A stretch of 64,000 nt of DNA, from the NCBI GenBank assembly GCA_963809595.1, contig CAWEKG010000002.1:724713-788712 (forward strand), given 5' to 3'. Under the pieces are notes generated by a model, which worked only from the letters and a program-made list of their open reading frames with translations, made no database searches and was not told the DNA's origin. Positions 42,638-50,230 of this stretch are shown here, in pieces (within the stretch, counting starts at the first letter, position 1; each line of letters starts with the position of its first letter). The position numbers and the translations under genes were made by a program. Origin of the DNA: an uncultured Chloroflexia bacterium (GTDB taxonomy: Bacteria; Chloroflexota; Limnocylindria; Limnocylindrales; CSP1-4).

Positions 42638-43903
42638 TCAGAGCTCGAGATCGTTGCCCGGTTCGAGGGCCGCGACCGCCCCGGCCGACTCGGGCGCCGG
42701 AGCCCCACTCGCGAGATACGAGCTGAGCGCCGTCTCGAACCCGACGTCCCGCCCTGCGCGCTCCGAGAGGAGCCACTTGTGCTCGAGCACGTCGCAGTAC
42801 GTCTGGATCGGGTCGCGATCGGGTTCGACCGCCGCGGCCAACCGGACGATCGCCGGTTCGTAGAGCTCCTCGCGCCAGCGTCGGGCACCCTCGAGGCGGT
42901 CGACCGGCCGACCCTCGGACCAGGCCAACCAGGTCCGGTACTCCCGAAGGTCGTTCATCAGCAGGCGGGCCTGGCCCTCGAGGGCGACGATGCCGGTCCG
43001 CTCCTCGAGCTCGCGGGCATGGAACCGCCGGGTGGTGACCGCGACGCGGAGCCGGAGGCGACCGGTCCGATCGCCCGGCTCGAGCTCGATCTCGTCGATC
43101 GAGAAGCCGAGGTCGTTGAGCCGGCGGATCCGAGCCTCGATCGCGTGCCGGTCGCCGGCCCGCAGGTCGTGCTCGGCGTGGAGCTCGTCCCAGAGGGCCC
43201 GATAGCGGATCCGGACACCCTCGGCCGCGGAGATGGCGTCCTCGAAGTCGTCGTCGCGGCCCTGGAGCGCGGCGAGGTCGGCCAGCCCGAAGGCGACGTT
43301 CTCGACGAGGACCTCGAGGTCGTAGGCCCGCTGGCCGTCGGAGAGCGAGGGATGAACCTCGCTCGTCTCGGCATCGACCAGGAAGGCCTGGATCTTGTCC
43401 CCGTCCCGGCGGAAGAGCGTGTTCGCCAGCGAGCAGTCGCCCCAGTACACACCGGCCCGGTGAAGGTCCACCAGCAGCGAGGCCATGGCGTCGAGGAGCC
43501 GGTCGCGGTAGGCCACCGAGCCCGACGGCAGACGCATGAGCAGCCGCCGGTACTGAAGGGAATGGGCCAGGTAGGCGGTGACCAGGATCGCCTCGGACCC
43601 GTCGGCCGATTCGGCCAGCCCGACCGGTTCGACCGCCGGGAGCTCGATCGAGCCGAGGTGGCGAAGGACCTCGTACTCGCGTCGGGCGACCCCCAGCGGC
43701 TCCTCCTTGAGGGCGTACAGCCGGCCATCGTCGACGAGGAACCGGACGAGATGACGCGAAGGGCCGACCGGCAGCTCACGCAGGTCGTGGTCGGCCGCCG
43801 ACCACTCGGCGAGGGGCGTCTCCCAGGGCAGACCGATCAGACCCGGGGACGTCGTCCGTAGTCGGAGGTGAGGAAAGGGCGCCGGGGCCGCGAGGTCGCT
43901 CAG
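42638..43903 (-). CDS. DUF4032-type protein with Kdo/WaaP-like kinase fold; start codon unresolved
   Basis: LIGLPWETPLAEW...LYALKEE...VYWGDCSLANTLF...FLVDAETSE, and C-terminal CDVLEHKWLLSERAGRDVG. There is no in-frame ATG, GTG or TTG between the GNAT stop and the conserved N-terminus. A CTG at 43903 is the first candidate. Confidence 0.7.
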   Translation of the reverse strand: MSDLAAPAPFPHLRLRTTSPGLIGLPWETPLAEWSAADHDLRELPVGPSRHLVRFLVDDGRLYALKEEPLGVARREYEVLRHLGSIELPAVEPVGLAESADGSEAILVTAYLAHSLQYRRLLMRLPSGSVAYRDRLLDAMASLLVDLHRAGVYWGDCSLANTLFRRDGDKIQAFLVDAETSEVHPSLSDGQRAYDLEVLVENVAFGLADLAALQGRDDDFEDAISAAEGVRIRYRALWDELHAEHDLRAGDRHAIEARIRRLNDLGFSIDEIELEPGDRTGRLRLRVAVTTRRFHARELEERTGIVALEGQARLLMNDLREYRTWLAWSEGRPVDRLEGARRWREELYEPAIVRLAAAVEPDRDPIQTYCDVLEHKWLLSERAGRDVGFETALSSYLASGAPAPESAGAVAALEPGNDLEL

Positions 43904-44340
43904 AGCCGCTTCCGGAGGTAGGCGGTGACCGTCGCGTCGTAGCCCAGCGACTCGTAGAGGTGGCGCGCCTCGGCTCGATGATGGGCGGCGGTGACCTCGA
44001 TGAACGCCGCGCCGGCGTCGCGGGCGATCGCATCGGCCGCGGTCATCAGGTCGTGGCCCACCCCGCGCCCGCGAGCGCCGGCGTCGACGACGAGGGCGAG
44101 CACCCGGGCGATCGTGTCGTCGTGCTCGAAGCGGGGCATCAGGTGGACCGCCACGAAACCGAGGATCTCCCCCGCGTCCTCGGCCACCAGGACCGTTCCG
44201 GACCCCGCCGTGAAGCGCTCGATCCGGCCCACGATCGTCGACGCGGCGGCGGGATACCCCTCGTCGGTGAAGAGCGCGGCGATCCGCTCGGCATCGGCCG
44301 TGGTGGCGGCCCGGAGGACGACAGGCTGCGGGGCGATCAT
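43900..44340 (-). CDS. GNAT family N-acetyltransferase
   Basis: LALVVDAGARGRGVGHDLM (acetyl-CoA loop). It has an ATGA overlap with the upstream gene. Confidence 0.85.
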   Translation of the reverse strand: MIAPQPVVLRAATTADAERIAALFTDEGYPAAASTIVGRIERFTAGSGTVLVAEDAGEILGFVAVHLMPRFEHDDTIARVLALVVDAGARGRGVGHDLMTAADAIARDAGAAFIEVTAAHHRAEARHLYESLGYDATVTAYLRKRL

Positions 44341-44912
44341 GGCCCCGATGGTACCCCGTCGCCGTCATCGACGACCACCACGAGCACGGGCCGCGACCCC
44401 CTGCCGACCGCTTTGCCCTCCGACGGCGCCCGGGGATCCACGACGAGCACCGCCGCCCCGAACGGACCGGACCCGCGCCGGAGGGTGAGACCGGCCGCGG
44501 CGAGCCGCTCCAGGATCAGGCCGGCTTCCCCGGGATGGGACCCGATCGGATGGAGGACCGTGGCGTAGAGCACCGCCCAGCCCTCACCCCGTCGGGCGAG
44601 CGTCGCCGCCAGCCGACCCTCGGTCGAGGGTTCCAGGAGGACGACCGGCGGGACGGTCGCCCCGCTCACCGGTGGTCGGGTGAGGCCGATCCTGGCGGTC
44701 GCCCCGAGGAGACGGTCGAACGGCGCGTCGGAGAAGGGTCCAAGGTCGCGCAGCTCCCGAGTCGCCCGGTCGAGGTCGACAGTGGCCCAGCCGACCGCCA
44801 CGGGCCGGAGCGAGACGCCGTCCAGGTCGAGCGCGTCCTCGGGCAGGAGGACAAGCCCGATCGCGGCCGCCAGCTCACGCCCGACCGCCGACGGGTCCCG
44901 GCTGGCGTCCAC
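44337..44912 (-). CDS. hypothetical protein, possibly VOC/glyoxalase-like
   Basis: GTG ORF containing VGWATVDLDRA...VVLLEPSTEGRLAATLARRGEG. The family call is tentative. Confidence 0.5.
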   Translation of the reverse strand: MDASRDPSAVGRELAAAIGLVLLPEDALDLDGVSLRPVAVGWATVDLDRATRELRDLGPFSDAPFDRLLGATARIGLTRPPVSGATVPPVVLLEPSTEGRLAATLARRGEGWAVLYATVLHPIGSHPGEAGLILERLAAAGLTLRRGSGPFGAAVLVVDPRAPSEGKAVGRGSRPVLVVVVDDGDGVPSGP

Positions 44913-44930: not shown

Positions 44931-45944
44931 TCAGGCCGGTCCGTCGACGACGAAGAGGGTCGCCCCGGACGGCAGGTCGATGACCGTCGGATCAGGCAGG
45001 CCGGCGGCTGCGTAGAGCGCTTCGTACCCGGCGTGATCCCACATCCGGGTCCCCTGGAAGACCTCGTCGAGCTGGATCCCCCAGAGCATGGCCCCGTCGA
45101 GCGCGCGCGACTCCTCGAGGCTGTCCGGCAGGCACCAGTCGAGGACCAGCAGCCGGCCGCCGGGTCGGACGACCGCCCGGGCCGACCGGAGGGCGCCGAC
45201 CGGGTCGACCAGCTCGTGGAGCGCATCCTGGATGTAGACGAGGTCGAACGCCGGACCGTACGGCAGGTCCGTCGGATCCCGGCTCTCGATGACGACACGC
45301 CCGCCCAGGCCGGCCTCGGCGACGTGACGCATAGCCCGGGCGACGTTGTCCGGCTCGAAGTCGACCCCGACCCCCGAGACGCCGGGGAACCGCCGGGCGA
45401 TGGCGACGAGCCAGCGCCCCCCACCGCACGCGACGTCGAGGACCCGGCCGCCGCCGGCGAGAGCGGCGGCGAGATCGGGCAGCGCGGCCAGGGCCTCCTG
45501 GAAGAAGACCGCGATGTCCTGGGCGGTGACCGCCTCGATGGCCCGGTGGAACCGGGGTGGACGCTCCGCGATGGGGCGACCGGTCCGGAAGAACTCGGTC
45601 ATCCGCTCCCAGTCGAGCGCACTCACGACGGTCGAGCTGAACTGACCGCCGAGGTACTCGGGCCGATCGTCGTCGAGGAGGATCCTGGCCACCTCGGGGA
45701 TGACCCGAGCCCGCTCTCCGTCGAAGTCGATGACGTCGACCGAGTGAGCCAGGCGGATCCAGACCGCGACCGGTCCGGGCTGGCAATCGACCTCCGTGGC
45801 GAGCGCCTCGGGGGTGAGTCCCGCTTCGGCGGCCGCCCGGAGGCGGGCGACGAGCCCGAGCTCGAGCCCGAGGTGGACGGCCCAGGTCCGGTAGAACCCG
45901 GCGAGGCTCCCCGCCAGCTCGTCGAAGCGGTCGTCGATCGACAT
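44931..45944 (-). CDS. class I SAM-dependent methyltransferase with N-terminal dimerisation/wHTH-like domain
   Basis: SAM motif I RVLDVACGGGRW, then DLVYIQDALHE and GGRLLVLDW. Confidence 0.8.
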   Translation of the reverse strand: MSIDDRFDELAGSLAGFYRTWAVHLGLELGLVARLRAAAEAGLTPEALATEVDCQPGPVAVWIRLAHSVDVIDFDGERARVIPEVARILLDDDRPEYLGGQFSSTVVSALDWERMTEFFRTGRPIAERPPRFHRAIEAVTAQDIAVFFQEALAALPDLAAALAGGGRVLDVACGGGRWLVAIARRFPGVSGVGVDFEPDNVARAMRHVAEAGLGGRVVIESRDPTDLPYGPAFDLVYIQDALHELVDPVGALRSARAVVRPGGRLLVLDWCLPDSLEESRALDGAMLWGIQLDEVFQGTRMWDHAGYEALYAAAGLPDPTVIDLPSGATLFVVDGPA

Positions 45945-46021
45945 CGTCCCGGGATTGTCGCATGTCGGCTCCTCTCGGCCGAGCGGGCTTCGGCCGTCCA
46001 GGGGTCCGGGCGGCCGGGGGA

Positions 46022-46048
46022 TGCAACCGCGTGGACCGCCGCCGTGTT
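46022..46048 (+). promoter_or_regulatory. weak ECF-type promoter candidate
   Basis: TGCAACC-N15-CGTGTT lies just upstream of the ECF sigma ATG. The spacer is 1-2 nt shorter than the usual GGAAC-N16/17-CGTT. Confidence 0.2.
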
Positions 46049-46059
46049 ATGAACCGGTG

Positions 46060-46764
46060 ATGGATGAGCCAGAGCTCCTCGAAGCCCTCGCCGCCGACCT
46101 CGATGGATCGTTCGAAACCCTCGTCCGCGCCCAGCAGGACCGGGTCTTCTCGATCGCCCTCCGTCTCCTGGGCGACCGGGCCGAAGCCGAGGACGCCACC
46201 CAGGACGCGCTCGTCCGGGCGTATCGGGCGCTCGGGACCTGGGACGGCGACCGGATCCGGACCGTCCGCCTGGGGGCGTGGCTGGCCACGATCACGGTCA
46301 ACGTCGTGCGCAATCGTCGACGCCGCCCCGCCGGATCGGGCGCCGCCGAGCCGCTCGAGTTCCTCGACGAGCTGGAGCACCCGGTCGCCGGCTCGCCCGG
46401 GACGCCGCACGACCGCGCCCTCCAGCGGGAGGCCGTTGAGGCCTGGGCCATCCGCCTCCTGGCCCTGCCCGAGCGCTATCGCGCACCTGTGGTCCTGCGC
46501 CACGTGGACGGGCTCGGCTATGACGAGATCGCCCTCGCCCTCGACCGGCCGGCAGGGACCGTCAAGGCCCAGGTCCACCGCGGGCTGGCCCTGCTTCGGG
46601 CGGCCATCGAGGCCGAATCCAGGGCACCGACCCAGGTCGGGACGGACGTCCCTCGACCCGGTGGCTCGATCGCCCGGCCGATGGCCAGGGGTCCGACCGG
46701 TCCCGTCGAACGCCCCGCCGATCCTCTCCCCGTCCCGAACCGCCTCCCGGAGGTGCCCCGATGA
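46060..46764 (+). CDS. ECF sigma-70 family RNA polymerase sigma factor
   Basis: Region 2: VFSIALRLLGDRAEAEDATQDALVRAYRAL...WLATITVNVVRN. Region 4: LPERYRAPVVLRHVDGLGYDEIALALDRPAGTVKAQVHRGL. A ~45-aa Pro/Arg-rich tail follows. The start is taken at ATG 46060. Confidence 0.88.
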   Translation: MDEPELLEALAADLDGSFETLVRAQQDRVFSIALRLLGDRAEAEDATQDALVRAYRALGTWDGDRIRTVRLGAWLATITVNVVRNRRRRPAGSGAAEPLEFLDELEHPVAGSPGTPHDRALQREAVEAWAIRLLALPERYRAPVVLRHVDGLGYDEIALALDRPAGTVKAQVHRGLALLRAAIEAESRAPTQVGTDVPRPGGSIARPMARGPTGPVERPADPLPVPNRLPEVPR

Positions 46765-47570
46765 CCCCGCTCGCTCCCCCGTCGCCCGACGACGCCACCC
46801 TTGCCGCCGACCTCGCCGAGCTCCGTATCGTCGCGCCGGCCGCGGTCCTGCCCCGGACCCTCGTCGAGCTGGGGCTGGCCGACGCCTACGGCTCGATCCC
46901 GTCGCCGATCGGCACGCTCTGGGTCGCCTTCAACGGTCTCGGCGTGGTGACCGTCGAGGAGGCGTCCGACCGAGCGTCCTTCGAGGCGCGCCATGCCGCA
47001 CGGTTCGGTCGGCCGGCCCACGCCGTCGCCGCCCTGCCGGCCCGCCTGGCCGGCTCGATCGATCGTCGCCTTGGTGGCGACCGACGGGTCCGCATCCCGC
47101 TCGATCTGCGCGGCCGGACGGAGTTCGAGCGCGACGTCTGGATGAAGGCCCTCGAGATCCCCCGGGGCGAGGTCCGGCCGTACGGCTGGATCGCCGCCGA
47201 GATCGGCCGGCCGCGGGCGGTCCGTGCCGTCGGGACGGCGCTCGGTCACAACCCGGTCCCGCTCATCGTGCCCTGTCACCGGGTGGTCCGGAGCGACGGG
47301 ATGATCGGGAACTACTCGCTCGGTGGGCCCGGCAACAAGCGGACGATCCTCAGCGCTGAGGGGCTCGACCCGGACGAGCTGGAGCGGCTGGCCCGGGCGG
47401 GGATCCGCTACATCGGGTCCGACACCACGCGGATCTACTGCCTGCCGAGCTGCCATCACGCCCGGCGGATCGACGAGCGCCATCGGGTCCCGTTCCGGTC
47501 CGCTACCGAGGGCGCCCGGAACGGATACCGCCCCTGCCGGGTCTGCCGCCCGACGGCGATCGCCGCCTGA
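46761..47570 (+). CDS. O6-alkylguanine-DNA alkyltransferase domain fused to a C-terminal Ada-type Cys4 zinc domain
   Basis: ATGA overlap with the sigma gene. MGMT motifs: TEFERDVWMKALEIPRGEVRPYGWIA and GHNPVPLIVPCHRVV. C-terminal module: RIYCLPSCHHARRIDERHRVPFRSATEGARNGYRPCRVCRP, with four Cys spaced as in N-Ada. Confidence 0.85.
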   Translation: MTPLAPPSPDDATLAADLAELRIVAPAAVLPRTLVELGLADAYGSIPSPIGTLWVAFNGLGVVTVEEASDRASFEARHAARFGRPAHAVAALPARLAGSIDRRLGGDRRVRIPLDLRGRTEFERDVWMKALEIPRGEVRPYGWIAAEIGRPRAVRAVGTALGHNPVPLIVPCHRVVRSDGMIGNYSLGGPGNKRTILSAEGLDPDELERLARAGIRYIGSDTTRIYCLPSCHHARRIDERHRVPFRSATEGARNGYRPCRVCRPTAIAA

Positions 47571-47668: not shown

Positions 47669-49012
47669 GTGATGGCTCGACGAGCCGACGTGCGGTACGC
47701 CTGGAACGGCGACGTGGCGCTGGCCTACCAGGTCTTCGGCGCTGGGCCGGTGGACCTCGTCTACCTGCAGGGGTACGCGTCCCACATCGACCTCAACTGG
47801 GACAGCCCGTACCTGGCGAGGTTCCTGCGCGGACTCGGCGAGCGGGCGCGGGTCATCCACACGGACCGGCGTGGCTGGGGCTGCTCCGACCGCTTCTCGC
47901 CGGGGGACGTCGCTCCGCTCGAGGTCCAGGTCGACGACCTGGTCGCAGTGATGGACGCGGCGGGCTCCGAGCGTGCGGTGATCTTCTTGTCGGACGACAC
48001 CTGTCCCACCGGTGTGCTGTTCGCGGCGACGTATCCCGAGCGGACAGCCGGCCTCGTCCTAGTCGACCCGATCTTCGCCTGGTACGACACCGAGGATGCG
48101 CGACGGGAGTGGGCGGACATCAACGCCCGAGTGCGCCGCGAGTGGGGGACGCCCGCCTATTTCGGCGAACACTGGCATGACGAACGCGAGCAGCATGACT
48201 GGTATGCGCCGTGGTGCCGGGCGAGCATCGCCCCGGGAGCGCTCGCCGCCGAGTCGGATGCATTCGGCGGGGTCGATGTCCGGGACGTCCTCTCCTCGAT
48301 CCACGCGCCGACGCTCCTCGTAGGCAGCTCCGAGGGGAGTGAGAGCATCGGCGATCCGGTTGCAACCAACGCGCGCGCTTTTCAGGCCGGGATCCCGGGC
48401 TCGCGACTGATCGAGCCGACGAGAGAGGGCGGCGCCTCGTGGCATCACTGGTACGCCCGTGGCTCTTCGATCCTCGCGGCCGTCGGCGACCTGATCGCCT
48501 CCATCCGGGAGGAGGAGACGTCCTTCGACCGGGTGCTCGCCACGGTCCTGTTCACCGACATCGTCGACTCCACCGCCACGGCCACGGTGCTGGGCGACGC
48601 GAGCTGGCGCAAGCTGATCGACGAGCACGACCGCGCGGCCAAAGCCCTGGTGGCGAGGTACCGGGGCGAGTACATACACTCCACCGGCGACGGCCTCCTC
48701 GCCACGTTCGACGGCCCGGCCAGAGCCGTCCGCTGCGCCCAGGCGATCATCGAGGCGGCGAGGCCCCTGGGGGTCGAGATCCGGGCCGGCCTCCACACCG
48801 GCGAGGTCGAGCGTGCCGACCACGGGGTCGCCGGGGTGGGTGTCCACATCGGGGCCAGAGTCGGCGCCATGGCCGGTGCCGGCGAGGTCTGGGTCAGCTC
48901 CACCGTCAAGGACCTCACCGCGGGCTCCGGTCTGGCCTTCGAGGATTGCGGCGAGCACGAGCTCAAGGGCGTCCCGGACCGCTGGCACCTGTACCGAGTC
49001 CCGCGATCCTGA
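47669..49012 (+). CDS. alpha/beta-hydrolase-like domain fused to a class III adenylate/guanylate cyclase domain
   Basis: Cyclase core: LATVLFTDIVDSTATATVLGD...YIHSTGDGLLATFDGPARAVRCA...IRAGLHTGEVE...GVHIGARV. In the N-terminal hydrolase fold, the nucleophile elbow reads FLSDDTC rather than GxSxG. ATG 47672 is an alternative start. Confidence 0.85.
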   Translation: MMARRADVRYAWNGDVALAYQVFGAGPVDLVYLQGYASHIDLNWDSPYLARFLRGLGERARVIHTDRRGWGCSDRFSPGDVAPLEVQVDDLVAVMDAAGSERAVIFLSDDTCPTGVLFAATYPERTAGLVLVDPIFAWYDTEDARREWADINARVRREWGTPAYFGEHWHDEREQHDWYAPWCRASIAPGALAAESDAFGGVDVRDVLSSIHAPTLLVGSSEGSESIGDPVATNARAFQAGIPGSRLIEPTREGGASWHHWYARGSSILAAVGDLIASIREEETSFDRVLATVLFTDIVDSTATATVLGDASWRKLIDEHDRAAKALVARYRGEYIHSTGDGLLATFDGPARAVRCAQAIIEAARPLGVEIRAGLHTGEVERADHGVAGVGVHIGARVGAMAGAGEVWVSSTVKDLTAGSGLAFEDCGEHELKGVPDRWHLYRVPRS

Positions 49013-49093: not shown

Positions 49094-50230
49094 GTGGGTA
49101 TCGGTCGTTCGAGTCCGCCCGCGCCGCCCGCGCCGGCCTCTTCCGCAGGCGGCGACCTGGGCGATGCGCCCGGGACCGGGACCGGGTATGCTCCGGACTT
49201 GGACCAGTCGACTGAGCCAAGCGTCTCCACGGGGCGGCTCCACGCCGCCAGCCCGGTCGCGATCTGGGCCGGCCTCTTCACCCTCTACTTCGTGTGGGGC
49301 TCGACGTACATCGGGATCAAGGTCAGCGTCGAGACGATCCCGCCGTTCCTGATGGCCTCGATCCGCTTCCTCATCGCCGGGGCGATCCTGCTCACCTGGG
49401 AGATCGTCGCCACCCGTCGGCTCAGGGGCGACCCGGACGTGCCGCCGGAGGAGCGCCCGGCGATGCCCAGTCGGCGCGAGTGGCGGGACTCGACCATCGT
49501 CGGCGGAGCCCTCCTGCTCGGCGGCATGGGCATGGTCGCGCTCGGCGAGAAGACCGTCTCGGCCGGGATCGCGGCGATCCTCGTCGCGATGCTGCCGGTC
49601 TGGGTGGCCGTCTTCGGCCGGGTCTTCTTCGGGGAGCGACTCCCGGTCGCGGCCGTCGTCGGGATCATCGTCGGCCTGGCGGGCGTGATCATCCTGGTCG
49701 GTCCGTTCGCGTCCGGCGGCGAGGCGCGGCTCGACCCGTTCGGGATCCTGTGCCTGATCATCTCGCCGATGTGCTGGGGGGCCGGGTCGCTCTACTCGTC
49801 CCACCTGGCCACCCTGCCCCGACGACCGCTCACCGCGACCGGTCTCCAGATGCTCTGCGGCGGCCTGCTCCTCGGTTTCGGGGCGTTGGTCACCGGTGAG
49901 GTCGCCACGTTCGACCCGGCCGCCGTCTCGACCCGGTCGCTCGTCGCGCTGGTCTATCTCACGACGATCGGGAGCCTGGTCGGCTTCACCACCTACGTCT
50001 GGCTCCTGCGGGTGGCGCCGCTGCCCAGGATCGCGACCTACGCTTACGTGAACCCGGTCGTGGCGTTCATCCTGGCCGGCATCCTGCTCGGCGAGGCGAT
50101 CGAGCCACGCACGGTGATCGCCGGGGCCATCATCATCTTCGCCGTGGCCCTGATCGTCACCGCCCGGAGCCGGACCGACGGCCGGTCCGCGACCCAGCCC
50201 GGCGTAGCGACAGCCGCCTACCCGGACTGA
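49094..50230 (+). CDS. EamA/DMT family transporter; start uncertain
   Basis: Ten helices with two EamA repeats (LYFVWGSTYIGIKV... and LVYLTTIGSLVGFTTYVWLL). The first ~55 codons are low-complexity. TTG ~49199 is a possible shorter start. Confidence 0.8.
   Translation: MGIGRSSPPAPPAPASSAGGDLGDAPGTGTGYAPDLDQSTEPSVSTGRLHAASPVAIWAGLFTLYFVWGSTYIGIKVSVETIPPFLMASIRFLIAGAILLTWEIVATRRLRGDPDVPPEERPAMPSRREWRDSTIVGGALLLGGMGMVALGEKTVSAGIAAILVAMLPVWVAVFGRVFFGERLPVAAVVGIIVGLAGVIILVGPFASGGEARLDPFGILCLIISPMCWGAGSLYSSHLATLPRRPLTATGLQMLCGGLLLGFGALVTGEVATFDPAAVSTRSLVALVYLTTIGSLVGFTTYVWLLRVAPLPRIATYAYVNPVVAFILAGILLGEAIEPRTVIAGAIIIFAVALIVTARSRTDGRSATQPGVATAAYPD

What the first reader, a model, noticed from the sequence alone, without database searches (positions are those of the whole stretch)
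46022..47570. ECF sigma factor coupled to an alkyltransferase / Ada-zinc fusion in place of an anti-sigma factor
The ECF sigma gene (46060-46764) ends in an ATGA that overlaps the start of a 269-aa protein. That protein shows no recognisable anti-sigma domain and no transmembrane helix.

It carries an O6-alkylguanine-DNA alkyltransferase domain with the acceptor motif PCHRV. A C-terminal module follows whose four cysteines are spaced as in the E. coli N-Ada methylphosphotriester-sensing zinc site (YCLPSC...PCRVC here, FCRPSC...PCKRC in N-Ada). So both alkyl-acceptor modules of Ada are present, in reversed order and without Ada's AraC-type HTH.

In Ada, methylation of a zinc-ligand Cys switches transcription on. 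Placing such a protein in the anti-sigma slot suggests that alkylation state controls an ECF sigma. That would be an adaptive response to alkylation wired through a sigma factor.

I know of no experimental description of this arrangement, and I cannot search to confirm that.
Basis: partly seen in the sequence, partly recalled or inferred. Interest (0 to 1): 0.75.

Follow-up and report, generated by a model that had tools for sequence, protein, structure and literature searches.

The report
Alkyl-repair enzyme doubling as anti-sigma factor
A stress sigma factor gene is paired with a DNA alkylation-repair protein that carries the remnant of an anti-sigma domain; the pair recurs in about 265 genomes from at least seven phyla, which suggests an untested alkylation response run through a sigma factor.

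Summary
An ECF sigma gene (46060-46764) overlaps by ATGA a 269-aa protein (46761-47570). That protein is a full two-domain O6-alkylguanine alkyltransferase (PCHR, Cys172) followed by an N-Ada-type Cys4 zinc module.

New findings:
- Residues 1-41 are not junk. They align with helices 3-4 of a zinc anti-sigma domain. Relatives 40-50% identical carry the whole domain (Pfam zf-HC2, HxxxCxxC) in that position.
- A sigma gene lies directly upstream in 268 of 270 loci with the extension (Chloroflexota, Actinomycetota including Thermobifida fusca, Gemmatimonadota, Acidobacteriota and others). It is absent in 0 of 6 relatives that lack the extension.
- A conserved ECF-type promoter, (G/C)(C/G)AAC-N18-GTT, precedes the sigma gene (46022-46049). 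It is the only copy in the 64-kb window.
- Cys172 and all four zinc cysteines are invariant in 120 diverse members.

Best reading: a cytoplasmic anti-sigma factor whose sensor is a suicide alkyl-acceptor, in a self-inducing operon. Binding and the alkylation trigger are inferred, not shown.

The pairing is already catalogued as group ECF122 ("unknown mechanism") in a 2022 review. I found no experimental work.

The parts
46022..46049 (+). ECF-type promoter of the operon: -35 TGCAAC(C), an 18-nt interval from GCAAC to GTT, and -10 (C)GTGTT(A). The ATG lies 11 nt after the -10, so the mRNA is probably leaderless or nearly so (inference).
   Evidence: GCAAC-N18-GTT occurs at a fixed distance from the start codon in 75 of 76 related upstream regions. 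It is the only match in the 64-kb window, with 0.17 expected. The same motif is found in 42 of 43 further Chloroflexota, Dormibacterota and Actinomycetota loci and in 61 of 79 actinomycete loci. ZAS-type loci have (C)GAAC-N18-GTT in 29 of 31.
46060..46764 (+). ECF sigma factor, 234 aa. Regions sigma-2 and sigma-4 span residues about 17-185. The last 45 or so residues form a Pro/Gly/Arg-rich tail that is poorly conserved.
   Evidence: Pfam Sigma70_r2 and Sigma70_r4_2. NCBIfam sigma70-ECF. The nearest solved structures are AlgU, SigW, SigE and SigH. Start codons of orthologues were confirmed by exact matches to database gene calls named 'RNA polymerase sigma-70 factor (ECF subfamily)'.
46761..46883 (+). 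N-terminal extension of the partner protein (residues 1-41). It forms two helices (11-20 and 29-36) with the motif L..L(R)..AP..L..R.L. It is homologous to helices 3-4 of the zinc anti-sigma domain and is the proposed sigma-binding element.
   Evidence: It aligns with the stretch after CxxC in zf-HC2-bearing relatives. zf-HC2 scores above the Pfam cut-off in P0145, P0150, P0164 and L089. The helices are seen in the AF2 model. The extension goes with sigma adjacency in 268 of 270 loci, against 0 of 6 without it.
46884..47369 (+). Two-domain O6-alkylguanine-DNA alkyltransferase (residues 42-203). The acceptor Cys172 lies in PCHRV (codon 47274-47276).
   Evidence: PF01035 1.5e-29. M. tuberculosis OGT 4bhb 1.3e-23 over residues 43-200. 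Foldseek 1sfe and 4wx9 at TM 0.77-0.78. C172, H173, R174, N164 and R139 are invariant in 120 members that are 36-94% identical.
47409..47552 (+). N-Ada-type Cys4 zinc module (residues 217-264), with C227, C231, C259 and C262. C227 aligns with Ada Cys38, the methylphosphotriester acceptor.
   Evidence: PF02805 2.2e-9. N-Ada 1adn residues 31-75, 3.9e-4. Foldseek 1u8b_A E 8e-3. All four Cys are invariant in 120 members.
44931..45944 (-). Divergently transcribed SAM-dependent methyltransferase. This is class-specific context and is not shown to belong to the system.
   Evidence: Pfam class I methyltransferase families. Present in 66 of 80 Limnocylindria-type loci. Not present in the actinomycete locus L201.
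49094..50230 (+). EamA-family transporter. It is the gene directly downstream of the pair in related Limnocylindria loci. In this window it is separated from the pair by an inserted gene (47669-49012).
   Evidence: Pfam EamA 5.9e-35. Present in 76 loci directly after the MGMT-Ada gene, while the 47669-49012 gene is found in 0 loci. The downstream gene is not conserved in other phyla.

Best explanation
The 269-aa protein is the cognate cytoplasmic anti-sigma factor of the ECF sigma encoded just upstream. It is built as [remnant anti-sigma domain]-[MGMT]-[N-Ada-type zinc module].

Proposed working:
1. The operon is transcribed from its own sigma-dependent promoter (46022-49).
2. In unstressed cells the partner protein holds the sigma factor through its N-terminal helices.
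3. An alkyl group is transferred irreversibly from damaged DNA to Cys172 (from O6-alkylguanine), to zinc-bound Cys227 (from a methylphosphotriester), or to both.
4. This changes or destabilises the protein, as is known for Ada and for alkylated MGMTs, and the sigma factor is released.
5. Free sigma re-induces the operon and so replaces the consumed suicide enzyme, together with any other regulon members.

What is shown: the anatomy, the homology to anti-sigma domains, the conservation of the pair and of the promoter, and the invariance of both acceptor sites.

What is inferred: sigma binding by this truncated domain, alkylation as the trigger, and autoregulation.
For: 1. Relatives 40-50% identical over MGMT+Ada_Zn carry a complete zf-HC2 (HxxxCxxC) anti-sigma domain at the N-terminus. 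It scores above the Pfam cut-off in P0145, P0150, P0164 and L089. The window's extension aligns with the part after CxxC.
2. An ECF sigma gene lies immediately upstream, often overlapping, in 76/76, 75/76, 38/39 and 79/79 testable loci. These come from Chloroflexota, Actinomycetota, Gemmatimonadota, Acidobacteriota, Latescibacterota, Zixibacteria and Dormibacterota.
3. Six MGMT+Ada_Zn relatives that lack the extension have no adjacent sigma gene.
4. An ECF-type promoter with identical geometry is conserved upstream of the sigma gene in both clades. A positively autoregulated sigma factor needs a post-translational brake, and no other candidate lies nearby.
5. Cys172/His/Arg and the four zinc cysteines are invariant in 120 diverse members and present in 120 of 120 close homologues.
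6. A natural in-frame sigma::MGMT-Ada fusion exists (P0390). Its AF2 model has pLDDT 87.2 and pTM 0.70. Its sigma half best matches SigW as bound to the anti-sigma RsiW (TM 0.74-0.75), against about 0.4 for holoenzyme-bound sigmas.
7. From established knowledge: methylation of Ada Cys38 switches Ada on, and alkylated MGMTs are destabilised. ChrR-type anti-sigma factors combine an N-terminal anti-sigma domain with a C-terminal sensor domain.
Against: - No direct evidence of binding. AlphaFold may favour the compact sigma conformation anyway.
- In the model of the window protein alone, the extension helices are already very confident (pLDDT 93-97, pTM 0.88). This means they pack on the enzyme body, so an 'ordered only with sigma' argument fails.
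- The window protein lacks anti-sigma helices 1-2 and the zinc motif, and Pfam sees no anti-sigma family in it.
- The published classification lists the group among ECFs without an anti-sigma factor.
- No second promoter copy occurs in 64 kb, and no downstream gene is conserved across phyla, so the regulon is unknown.
- Invariant acceptor cysteines are expected for any working repair enzyme. They do not prove that alkylation is the signal.
- P0390 is a single fusion and could be a sequencing frameshift.
Confidence: 0.5

Rival explanations
1. The protein is the anti-sigma factor, but the signal is not DNA alkylation. The Cys4 zinc site could act as a thiol switch for oxidants or electrophiles, as in RsrA-type zinc anti-sigma factors. 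Alternatively, DNA binding as such could control release. In either case MGMT activity would be a separate job of the same protein.
For: Many relatives have a true zinc anti-sigma motif in addition. Zinc thiolates are general sensors of electrophiles and oxidants (established knowledge of RsrA and RshA). The promoter geometry, xAAC-N18-GTT, resembles the SigR/SigH type GGAAT-N18-GTT (my knowledge; motif). The window protein lost its own zinc anti-sigma motif but kept the Ada zinc site.
Against: The zinc module is specifically of the N-Ada family by sequence and fold, not a generic zinc finger. It always comes with an intact MGMT active site. Some Latescibacterota relatives have lost the His/Cys of the anti-sigma motif while keeping MGMT and Cys4. 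That pattern points to the C-terminal modules as the constant sensor.
Confidence: 0.2
2. The protein is only a repair enzyme that is co-transcribed as the main target of the sigma factor. The sigma factor would be controlled in some other way, such as transcriptionally, through its C-terminal tail, or by an unlinked factor. The N-terminal extension would be a structural addition to the enzyme.
For: Pfam finds no anti-sigma domain in the window protein. The extension packs confidently on the enzyme in the monomer model. The literature files the group under 'no cognate anti-sigma factor'. MGMT+Ada_Zn also exists as a stand-alone repair protein, for example next to a Y-family polymerase gene.
Against: Relatives have bona fide zf-HC2 anti-sigma domains in the same position. 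The extension tracks sigma linkage perfectly, 268 of 270 against 0 of 6. The genes overlap at stop/start. The sigma tail is not conserved. In L089 an anti-sigma-type copy is followed by a second copy without the extension, which fits a split into regulator and enzyme.
Confidence: 0.15
3. The adjacency is a chance or lineage-specific gene order with no functional coupling.
For: None beyond the absence of experiments.
Against: The pair occurs in about 265 distinct loci in at least seven phyla, while flanking genes differ. The promoter is conserved.
Confidence: 0.02

Closest known systems
ECF group ECF122 (Casas-Pastor et al. 2021 classification, as cited in PMC8999054)
   Same: An ECF sigma factor whose conserved neighbour is a 6-O-methylguanine DNA methyltransferase. 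It is listed under 'unknown mechanism', with a representative from the actinomycete Cellulomonas sp. Root930. Cultured actinomycetes carry exactly the pair seen here.
   Different: I could not classify the window's sigma factor against the ECF122 model, and no Cellulomonas locus was retrieved. The review treats the group as lacking an anti-sigma factor. The texts I could read do not mention the remnant or full anti-sigma domain, the Ada zinc module or the promoter. The paper's supplement is not held.
E. coli Ada (adaptive response to alkylation)
   Same: Both alkyl-acceptor modules are present: an N-Ada Cys4 zinc site (PF02805; 1adn, 1u8b) and a C-Ada/MGMT domain with PCHR (1sfe). The proposed logic is the same: irreversible self-alkylation turns on the protein's own synthesis.
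   Different: The module order is reversed. There is no AraC-type HTH. The Ada module covers only profile positions 18-64 of 65. The output would run through release of a sigma factor, not through direct promoter binding.
Zinc anti-sigma (ZAS, class I anti-sigma domain) factors with a C-terminal sensor domain, e.g. ChrR-sigmaE, RsiW-SigW, RsrA-SigR
   Same: Relatives have the HxxxCxxC zf-HC2 domain at the N-terminus followed by a sensor-type domain. The operon order is sigma then anti-sigma with overlapping genes. The promoter is ECF-type and looks autoregulated. The modelled sigma conformation resembles SigW bound to RsiW.
   Different: The window protein keeps only the last two helices and no zinc motif. 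The sensor would be a suicide DNA-repair enzyme, which has no described precedent among anti-sigma factors (literature).
Stand-alone Ogt/MGMT (e.g. M. tuberculosis OGT, 4bhb)
   Same: Full two-domain fold and active site.
   Different: It has an extra 41-residue N-terminal extension and a C-terminal Ada zinc module, and it is obligatorily linked to a sigma gene. MGMT+Ada_Zn forms without the extension exist and are not sigma-linked.

Membership tests
ECF sigma factor (group 4 sigma-70) | Only regions sigma-2 and sigma-4, with no regions 1.1 or 3 | tested here: met
   Pfam Sigma70_r2 plus Sigma70_r4_2 only, in a 234-aa protein. NCBIfam sigma70-ECF is above its cut-off.
ECF sigma factor (group 4 sigma-70) | ECF-type promoter (AAC in the -35, G/C-GTT-like -10) upstream of its own gene | tested here: met
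   TGCAAC-N-GTGTT at 46022-46049, conserved in position in 75 of 76 loci. Transcription from it was not tested.
ECF122 (ECF Hub group) | A 6-O-methylguanine DNA methyltransferase conserved next to the sigma gene | tested here: met
ECF122 (ECF Hub group) | The sigma sequence scores in the group's own HMM or phylogenetic clade | not testable with these tools
   No ECF Hub models or representative sequence are available. The window sigma is about 40% identical to actinomycete partners, and both have the GCAAC-N18-GTT promoter.
Zinc anti-sigma factor (zf-HC2 / class I anti-sigma domain) | HxxxCxxC zinc motif | tested here: not met
   Absent from the window protein, which has only five Cys, none in residues 1-41, and gives no Pfam hit. 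Present in relatives P0145, P0150, P0164 and L089, above the Pfam cut-off.
Zinc anti-sigma factor (zf-HC2 / class I anti-sigma domain) | Four-helix anti-sigma domain | tested here: not met
   Only two helices (11-20, 29-36) precede the MGMT domain. They align with the segment after CxxC in the full domains.
Zinc anti-sigma factor (zf-HC2 / class I anti-sigma domain) | Binds and inhibits its cognate sigma factor | not testable with these tools
The fusion model gives only indirect hints.
MGMT / Ogt alkyltransferase | Two-domain fold with the PCHR acceptor cysteine, the Asn hinge and the Arg finger | tested here: met
   PF01035. 4bhb alignment over residues 43-200. Foldseek TM 0.77-0.78. C172, H173, R174, N164 and R139 invariant. 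Activity was not tested.
Ada (bifunctional regulator) | N-Ada Cys4 zinc site with the Cys38-equivalent acceptor | tested here: met
   PF02805 2.2e-9. 1adn residues 31-75. 1u8b fold hit. Four Cys invariant. Zinc binding and methyl acceptance were not tested.
Ada (bifunctional regulator) | AraC/XylS-type HTH between the two acceptor domains, with N-Ada at the N-terminus | tested here: not met
   No HTH_18/AraC hit. The order is MGMT then the Ada zinc module. NCBIfam Ada equivalog scores 99 bits against a cut-off of 345.

The most novel reading that the evidence does not exclude
A sigma-factor version of the adaptive response to alkylation. A suicide repair enzyme (MGMT plus an N-Ada zinc module) is itself the anti-sigma factor. 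Each irreversible alkyl transfer would then consume one inhibitor and free one sigma factor, which re-induces the operon. This would be a stoichiometric, consumption-coupled feedback loop conserved in at least seven bacterial phyla, including cultured actinomycetes.
Probability: 0.45. Interest if true: 0.8.

Novelty: new variant of a known kind. Interest (0 to 1): 0.66.

Why it matters
- Ada is the textbook case of a protein that senses DNA damage by being chemically modified by it. Its regulatory logic is known only for AraC-type activators in Proteobacteria and Firmicutes.
- If this reading holds, large parts of Actinomycetota, Chloroflexota, Gemmatimonadota and Acidobacteriota run an analogous response through an ECF sigma factor. 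The repair enzyme itself would be the anti-sigma factor.
- That would add a new sensor class to anti-sigma factors, namely irreversible covalent capture of a DNA lesion.
- It would explain an ECF group currently listed as 'unknown mechanism'.
- It would give a compact, orthogonal, damage-inducible sigma/anti-sigma pair with a defined promoter for synthetic biology.
- It can be tested now in cultured carriers (Thermobifida fusca, Nonomuraea, Actinomadura, Streptosporangium, Thermogemmatispora).

Tried and rejected
- Complex modelling.
- Block alignments. Alignments of sigma-only and MGMT-only rows were mis-built by MAFFT several times. A usable one (A6) was obtained after sigma orthologues were registered through exact cluster look-ups.
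- Contacts in the fusion model. Only pLDDT, pTM and secondary structure are returned, and no coordinates are available. Contacts between the extension and the sigma half could therefore not be measured.
- 'Extension ordered only with sigma' test. It failed, because the extension is already confident in the monomer.
- Search for other regulon members. There is no further promoter copy in the 64-kb window even with relaxed patterns. There are none in the 4-kb flanks of 80 loci, apart from a coding-sequence look-alike inside the sigma gene in 13 loci.
- Downstream genes. They are not conserved across phyla.
- Other signals around the operon. No sigma-70-type promoter, intrinsic terminator or Rfam family was found.
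- Metagenome scan for extension-less relatives. It returned only extension-bearing or plain Ogt loci. The question was settled by exact-protein look-ups instead.
- ECF122. No Cellulomonas representative could be retrieved, and the supplement of the classification paper is not held.
- Other fusion proteins. P0373, P0391, P0155, P0233 and P0258 are frameshifted translations and were not used as evidence.
- PDB sequence search with a zinc anti-sigma N-terminus. It gave only a non-significant RslA hit.
Full report
**1. What is in the window**

On the + strand, an ORF ending at 46764 contains an ECF sigma factor. Its start at ATG 46060 matches orthologues. The stop overlaps, in the sequence ATGA, the start of a 269-aa ORF running 46761-47570.

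The sigma factor:
- Pfam finds only Sigma70_r2 and Sigma70_r4_2.
- It passes the NCBIfam sigma70-ECF model.
- Its nearest solved relatives are AlgU, SigW, SigE and SigH.

The partner protein:
- Pfam PF01035 (MGMT DNA-binding domain), residues 121-201, 1.5e-29, and PF02805 (Ada_Zn_binding), residues 217-264, 2.2e-9.
- Residues 43-200 align with the whole two-domain M. tuberculosis OGT. Residues 220-265 align with E. coli N-Ada residues 31-75.
- It has five cysteines in all: C172 in PCHRV, and C227, C231, C259 and C262.
- It has no transmembrane segment, no AraC-type HTH and no Pfam anti-sigma family.
- An AlphaFold2 model built on 120 homologues is very confident (pLDDT 95.8, pTM 0.88).
- The model superposes on C-Ada and OGT structures (TM 0.77-0.78). 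Its C-terminal module hits the N-Ada/DNA complex 1u8b.

**2. Source organism and neighbours**

The closest loci are MAGs of Candidatus Limnocylindria, phylum Chloroflexota. In these loci:
- A SAM-dependent methyltransferase is usually transcribed divergently upstream (66 loci).
- An EamA transporter follows the pair directly (76 loci).
- The window's alpha/beta-hydrolase plus cyclase gene (47669-49012) is found in none of them, so it is a local insertion.

**3. The pair is widely conserved**

An ECF sigma gene lies directly upstream of the MGMT-Ada gene in almost every testable locus.

| Locus set | Sigma directly upstream |
|---|---|
| Limnocylindria-type loci | 76 of 76 |
| Second set: Gemmatimonadota, Acidobacteriota (Thermoanaerobaculia), Latescibacterota, Zixibacteria, Dormibacterota, Ktedonobacteria (including cultured Thermogemmatispora), Anaerolineae, Acidimicrobiia | 75 of 76 (Pfam-verified) |
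| Acidimicrobiia-centred loci | 38 of 39 |
| Actinomycete loci, most from cultured strains: Streptosporangium, Nonomuraea, Spirillospora, Actinomadura, Actinoallomurus, Thermobifida fusca, Pseudonocardia, Actinomycetospora, Actinokineospora | 79 of 79 |

- In Streptosporangium sp. NPDC000396 the database gene calls show a 204-aa sigma gene overlapping a 251-aa MGMT+Ada_Zn gene.
- After removing a few contigs that were fetched twice, this comes to about 265 distinct loci.
- Flanking genes differ between phyla. What is conserved is the pair.

**4. The N-terminal extension is a remnant anti-sigma domain**

- A search of 1.84 billion cluster representatives found 236 relatives at E<1e-30.
- Those 40-50% identical to the window protein are often about 30 residues longer at the N-terminus and carry H-x3-C-x2-C.
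- Pfam zf-HC2, the zinc anti-sigma motif, scores above its gathering cut-off in P0145, P0150, P0164 and the L089 protein. All four have the architecture zf-HC2 + MGMT + Ada_Zn.
- Other relatives have an equally long extension without the zinc ligands.
- In a joint alignment, the window's residues about 11-41 (...LAADLAELRIVAPAAVLPRTLVELGLAD) line up with the stretch after CxxC in the zinc-type proteins. They share the motif L..L(R)..AP..L..(R)V. By my knowledge of class I anti-sigma domains, this stretch corresponds to helices 3 and 4.
- The AF2 model shows exactly two helices there, at residues 11-20 and 29-36.
- So the window protein has a truncated anti-sigma domain. Helices 1-2 and the zinc site are missing.

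**5. The extension tracks the sigma gene**

MGMT+Ada_Zn proteins without any N-terminal extension also exist. I looked up six of them on their contigs, and none has a sigma neighbour. Their upstream genes are:
- a Y-family DNA polymerase;
- DeoC;
- proline racemase (two cases);
- a hydrolase;
- an amino-acid oxidase.

With the extension, 268 of 270 loci have a sigma gene. Without it, 0 of 6 do. This is the strongest evidence here that the extension is the module that couples the enzyme to the sigma factor.

In L089 a zinc-type copy is followed directly by a second copy without the extension. That looks like a split into a regulator and an enzyme.

**6. A conserved sigma-type promoter**

- Immediately upstream of the sigma start, 75 of 76 Limnocylindria-type loci and the window have GCAAC, then 18 nt, then GTT. 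The usual form is TGCAAC(C/G)...(C/G)GTGTT. The ATG follows 11-14 nt after the -10.
- In the window this is 46022-46049. It is the only match in 64 kb, with 0.17 expected, even with relaxed patterns.
- The same motif precedes the sigma gene in 42 of 43 further loci of the short-extension type and in 61 of 79 actinomycete loci.
- Zinc-type loci have (C)GAAC-N18-GTT in 29 of 31, against a background of 0.03 per 320 nt.
- The geometry is that of ECF promoters. I infer that the operon is transcribed by its own sigma factor, as is common for ECF sigma/anti-sigma operons.
- Such positive feedback needs a post-translational brake. The only conserved candidate is the partner protein.

**7. Both acceptor sites are under strict selection**

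- In 120 family members that are 36-94% identical to the window protein, the invariant columns include R139, W143, N164, C172, H173, R174 and all four zinc cysteines.
- All 120 close homologues have PCHR and the Cys4 pattern.

**8. Structure-based attempts**

- Multimer modelling was not possible.
- A natural in-frame fusion of sigma and partner, P0390 (463 aa, on a 157-kb contig), was found.
- It was modelled with a block alignment about 34 sequences deep on the sigma half and 11 on the other half.
- The model has pLDDT 87.2 and pTM 0.70. The extension helices score 83-88.
- The sigma half superposes over both domains on SigW as seen bound to its anti-sigma factor RsiW (TM 0.74-0.75). It matches holoenzyme-bound sigmas at only about 0.4.
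- This agrees with an inhibited, compact sigma factor but is weak evidence. No coordinates could be inspected, AlphaFold may prefer this state regardless, and P0390 could be a frameshift artefact.
- In the monomer model the extension is already well ordered. The models therefore do not show that it needs the sigma factor.

**9. Mechanism**

Most likely (about 0.5), the protein is the cognate anti-sigma factor, and alkyl transfer to Cys172, to zinc-bound Cys227, or to both, relieves inhibition.
- This is by analogy with Ada, where Cys38 methylation switches the protein on, and with the known destabilisation of alkylated MGMTs. Both are established knowledge, not tested here.
- Because MGMT is consumed by its own reaction, such a circuit would replace exactly what damage uses up.

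Alternatives:
- An anti-sigma factor that responds to another signal, such as a thiol or redox switch at the zinc site (0.2).
- A mere co-transcribed repair enzyme (0.15).
- Chance adjacency, which is excluded.

**10. Relation to what is known**

- A full-text search found one relevant statement. A 2022 review of non-canonical ECFs lists '6-O-methylguanine DNA methyltransferases (ECF122)' among conserved neighbours that might regulate ECF groups lacking an anti-sigma factor.
- In the review's table ECF122 appears under 'Unknown mechanism', with a representative from Cellulomonas sp. Root930. The review cites the 2021 reclassification.
- The main text of the 2021 paper does not discuss the group, and its supplement is not held.
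- No paper combining ECF or anti-sigma factors with alkyltransferases experimentally was found.
- Database names for the two genes are plain: 'methylated-DNA--[protein]-cysteine S-methyltransferase' and 'sigma-70 family RNA polymerase sigma factor'.
- So the pairing is catalogued but unexplained.
- The following appear to go beyond what I could find: the anti-sigma-domain ancestry of the partner, the constant Ada zinc module, the promoter, the contrast with extension-less relatives, and the breadth outside Actinomycetota.
- I could not test whether the window's sigma factor falls into ECF122 proper.

**11. Verdict**

This is a real, strongly conserved and experimentally untouched sigma/anti-sigma-type module with an unprecedented sensor domain. 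It is a new variant of the anti-sigma-domain-plus-sensor design and of the Ada logic. The gene pairing had already been flagged in the ECF classification. Interest is 0.66.

Noticed in passing
window 47669-49012 (+): A 447-aa fusion of an alpha/beta-hydrolase domain and an adenylate/guanylate cyclase domain sits between the MGMT-Ada gene and the EamA transporter. None of 80 related loci has it there, so it is a lineage-specific insertion.
   Followed up: partly
window 45951-45962, and the same position in about 45 related loci: The element GATTGTCGCATG is conserved just upstream of the divergent methyltransferase gene (start 45944, minus strand). On that strand it reads CATGCGACAATC and may be an extended -10 promoter for a leaderless mRNA. 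A second recurrent element, GGTACCGT(A/T), appears in a subset of loci.
   Followed up: no
window 46630-46761 (sigma residues about 190-234): The sigma factor ends in a Pro/Gly/Arg-rich tail of about 45 residues. Its length and sequence vary among orthologues, and its role is unknown.
   Followed up: no
L025, L028, L039, L043, L047, L049, L051, L057, L060, L062, L069, L071, L076, about 300 nt into the sigma gene: A second GCAAC-N18-GTT match lies inside the sigma coding sequence (codons R-N-R ... V-P) in one subclade. It is probably a coding coincidence, but an internal promoter is not excluded.
   Followed up: no
L089 4001-4900 and 4923-5681: One Chloroflexia MAG has a zf-HC2+MGMT+Ada_Zn gene followed 23 nt later by a second MGMT+Ada_Zn paralogue without the extension.
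   Followed up: partly
P0390 (ENA, 157-kb contig): A single in-frame translational fusion of the sigma factor and the MGMT-Ada protein (463 aa). It may be a true fusion or a one-base assembly error at the overlap. Other apparent fusions (P0373, P0391, P0155, P0233, P0258) are frameshifted.
   Followed up: partly
L288-L290, 1864-3681: An extension-less MGMT+Ada_Zn gene lies directly after a Y-family (IMS/DinB-like) DNA polymerase gene. This suggests a separate damage-tolerance operon for the stand-alone form.
   Followed up: no
L092-L105, L154 (Latescibacterota and Gemmatimonadota MAGs): Several zinc-type relatives have replaced the His or Cys ligands of the anti-sigma motif (e.g. EQLEASADCREE, EQLAASADSPEE) while keeping MGMT and the Ada Cys4 site. 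The anti-sigma zinc site therefore appears dispensable in this family.
   Followed up: no
window 42638-44368 (-): The long ORF with DUF4032 and a Kdo/WaaP-like kinase domain overlaps the GNAT acetyltransferase ORF (43900-44340, -) in another frame. The 576-aa ORF is probably over-extended at its 5' end.
   Followed up: no
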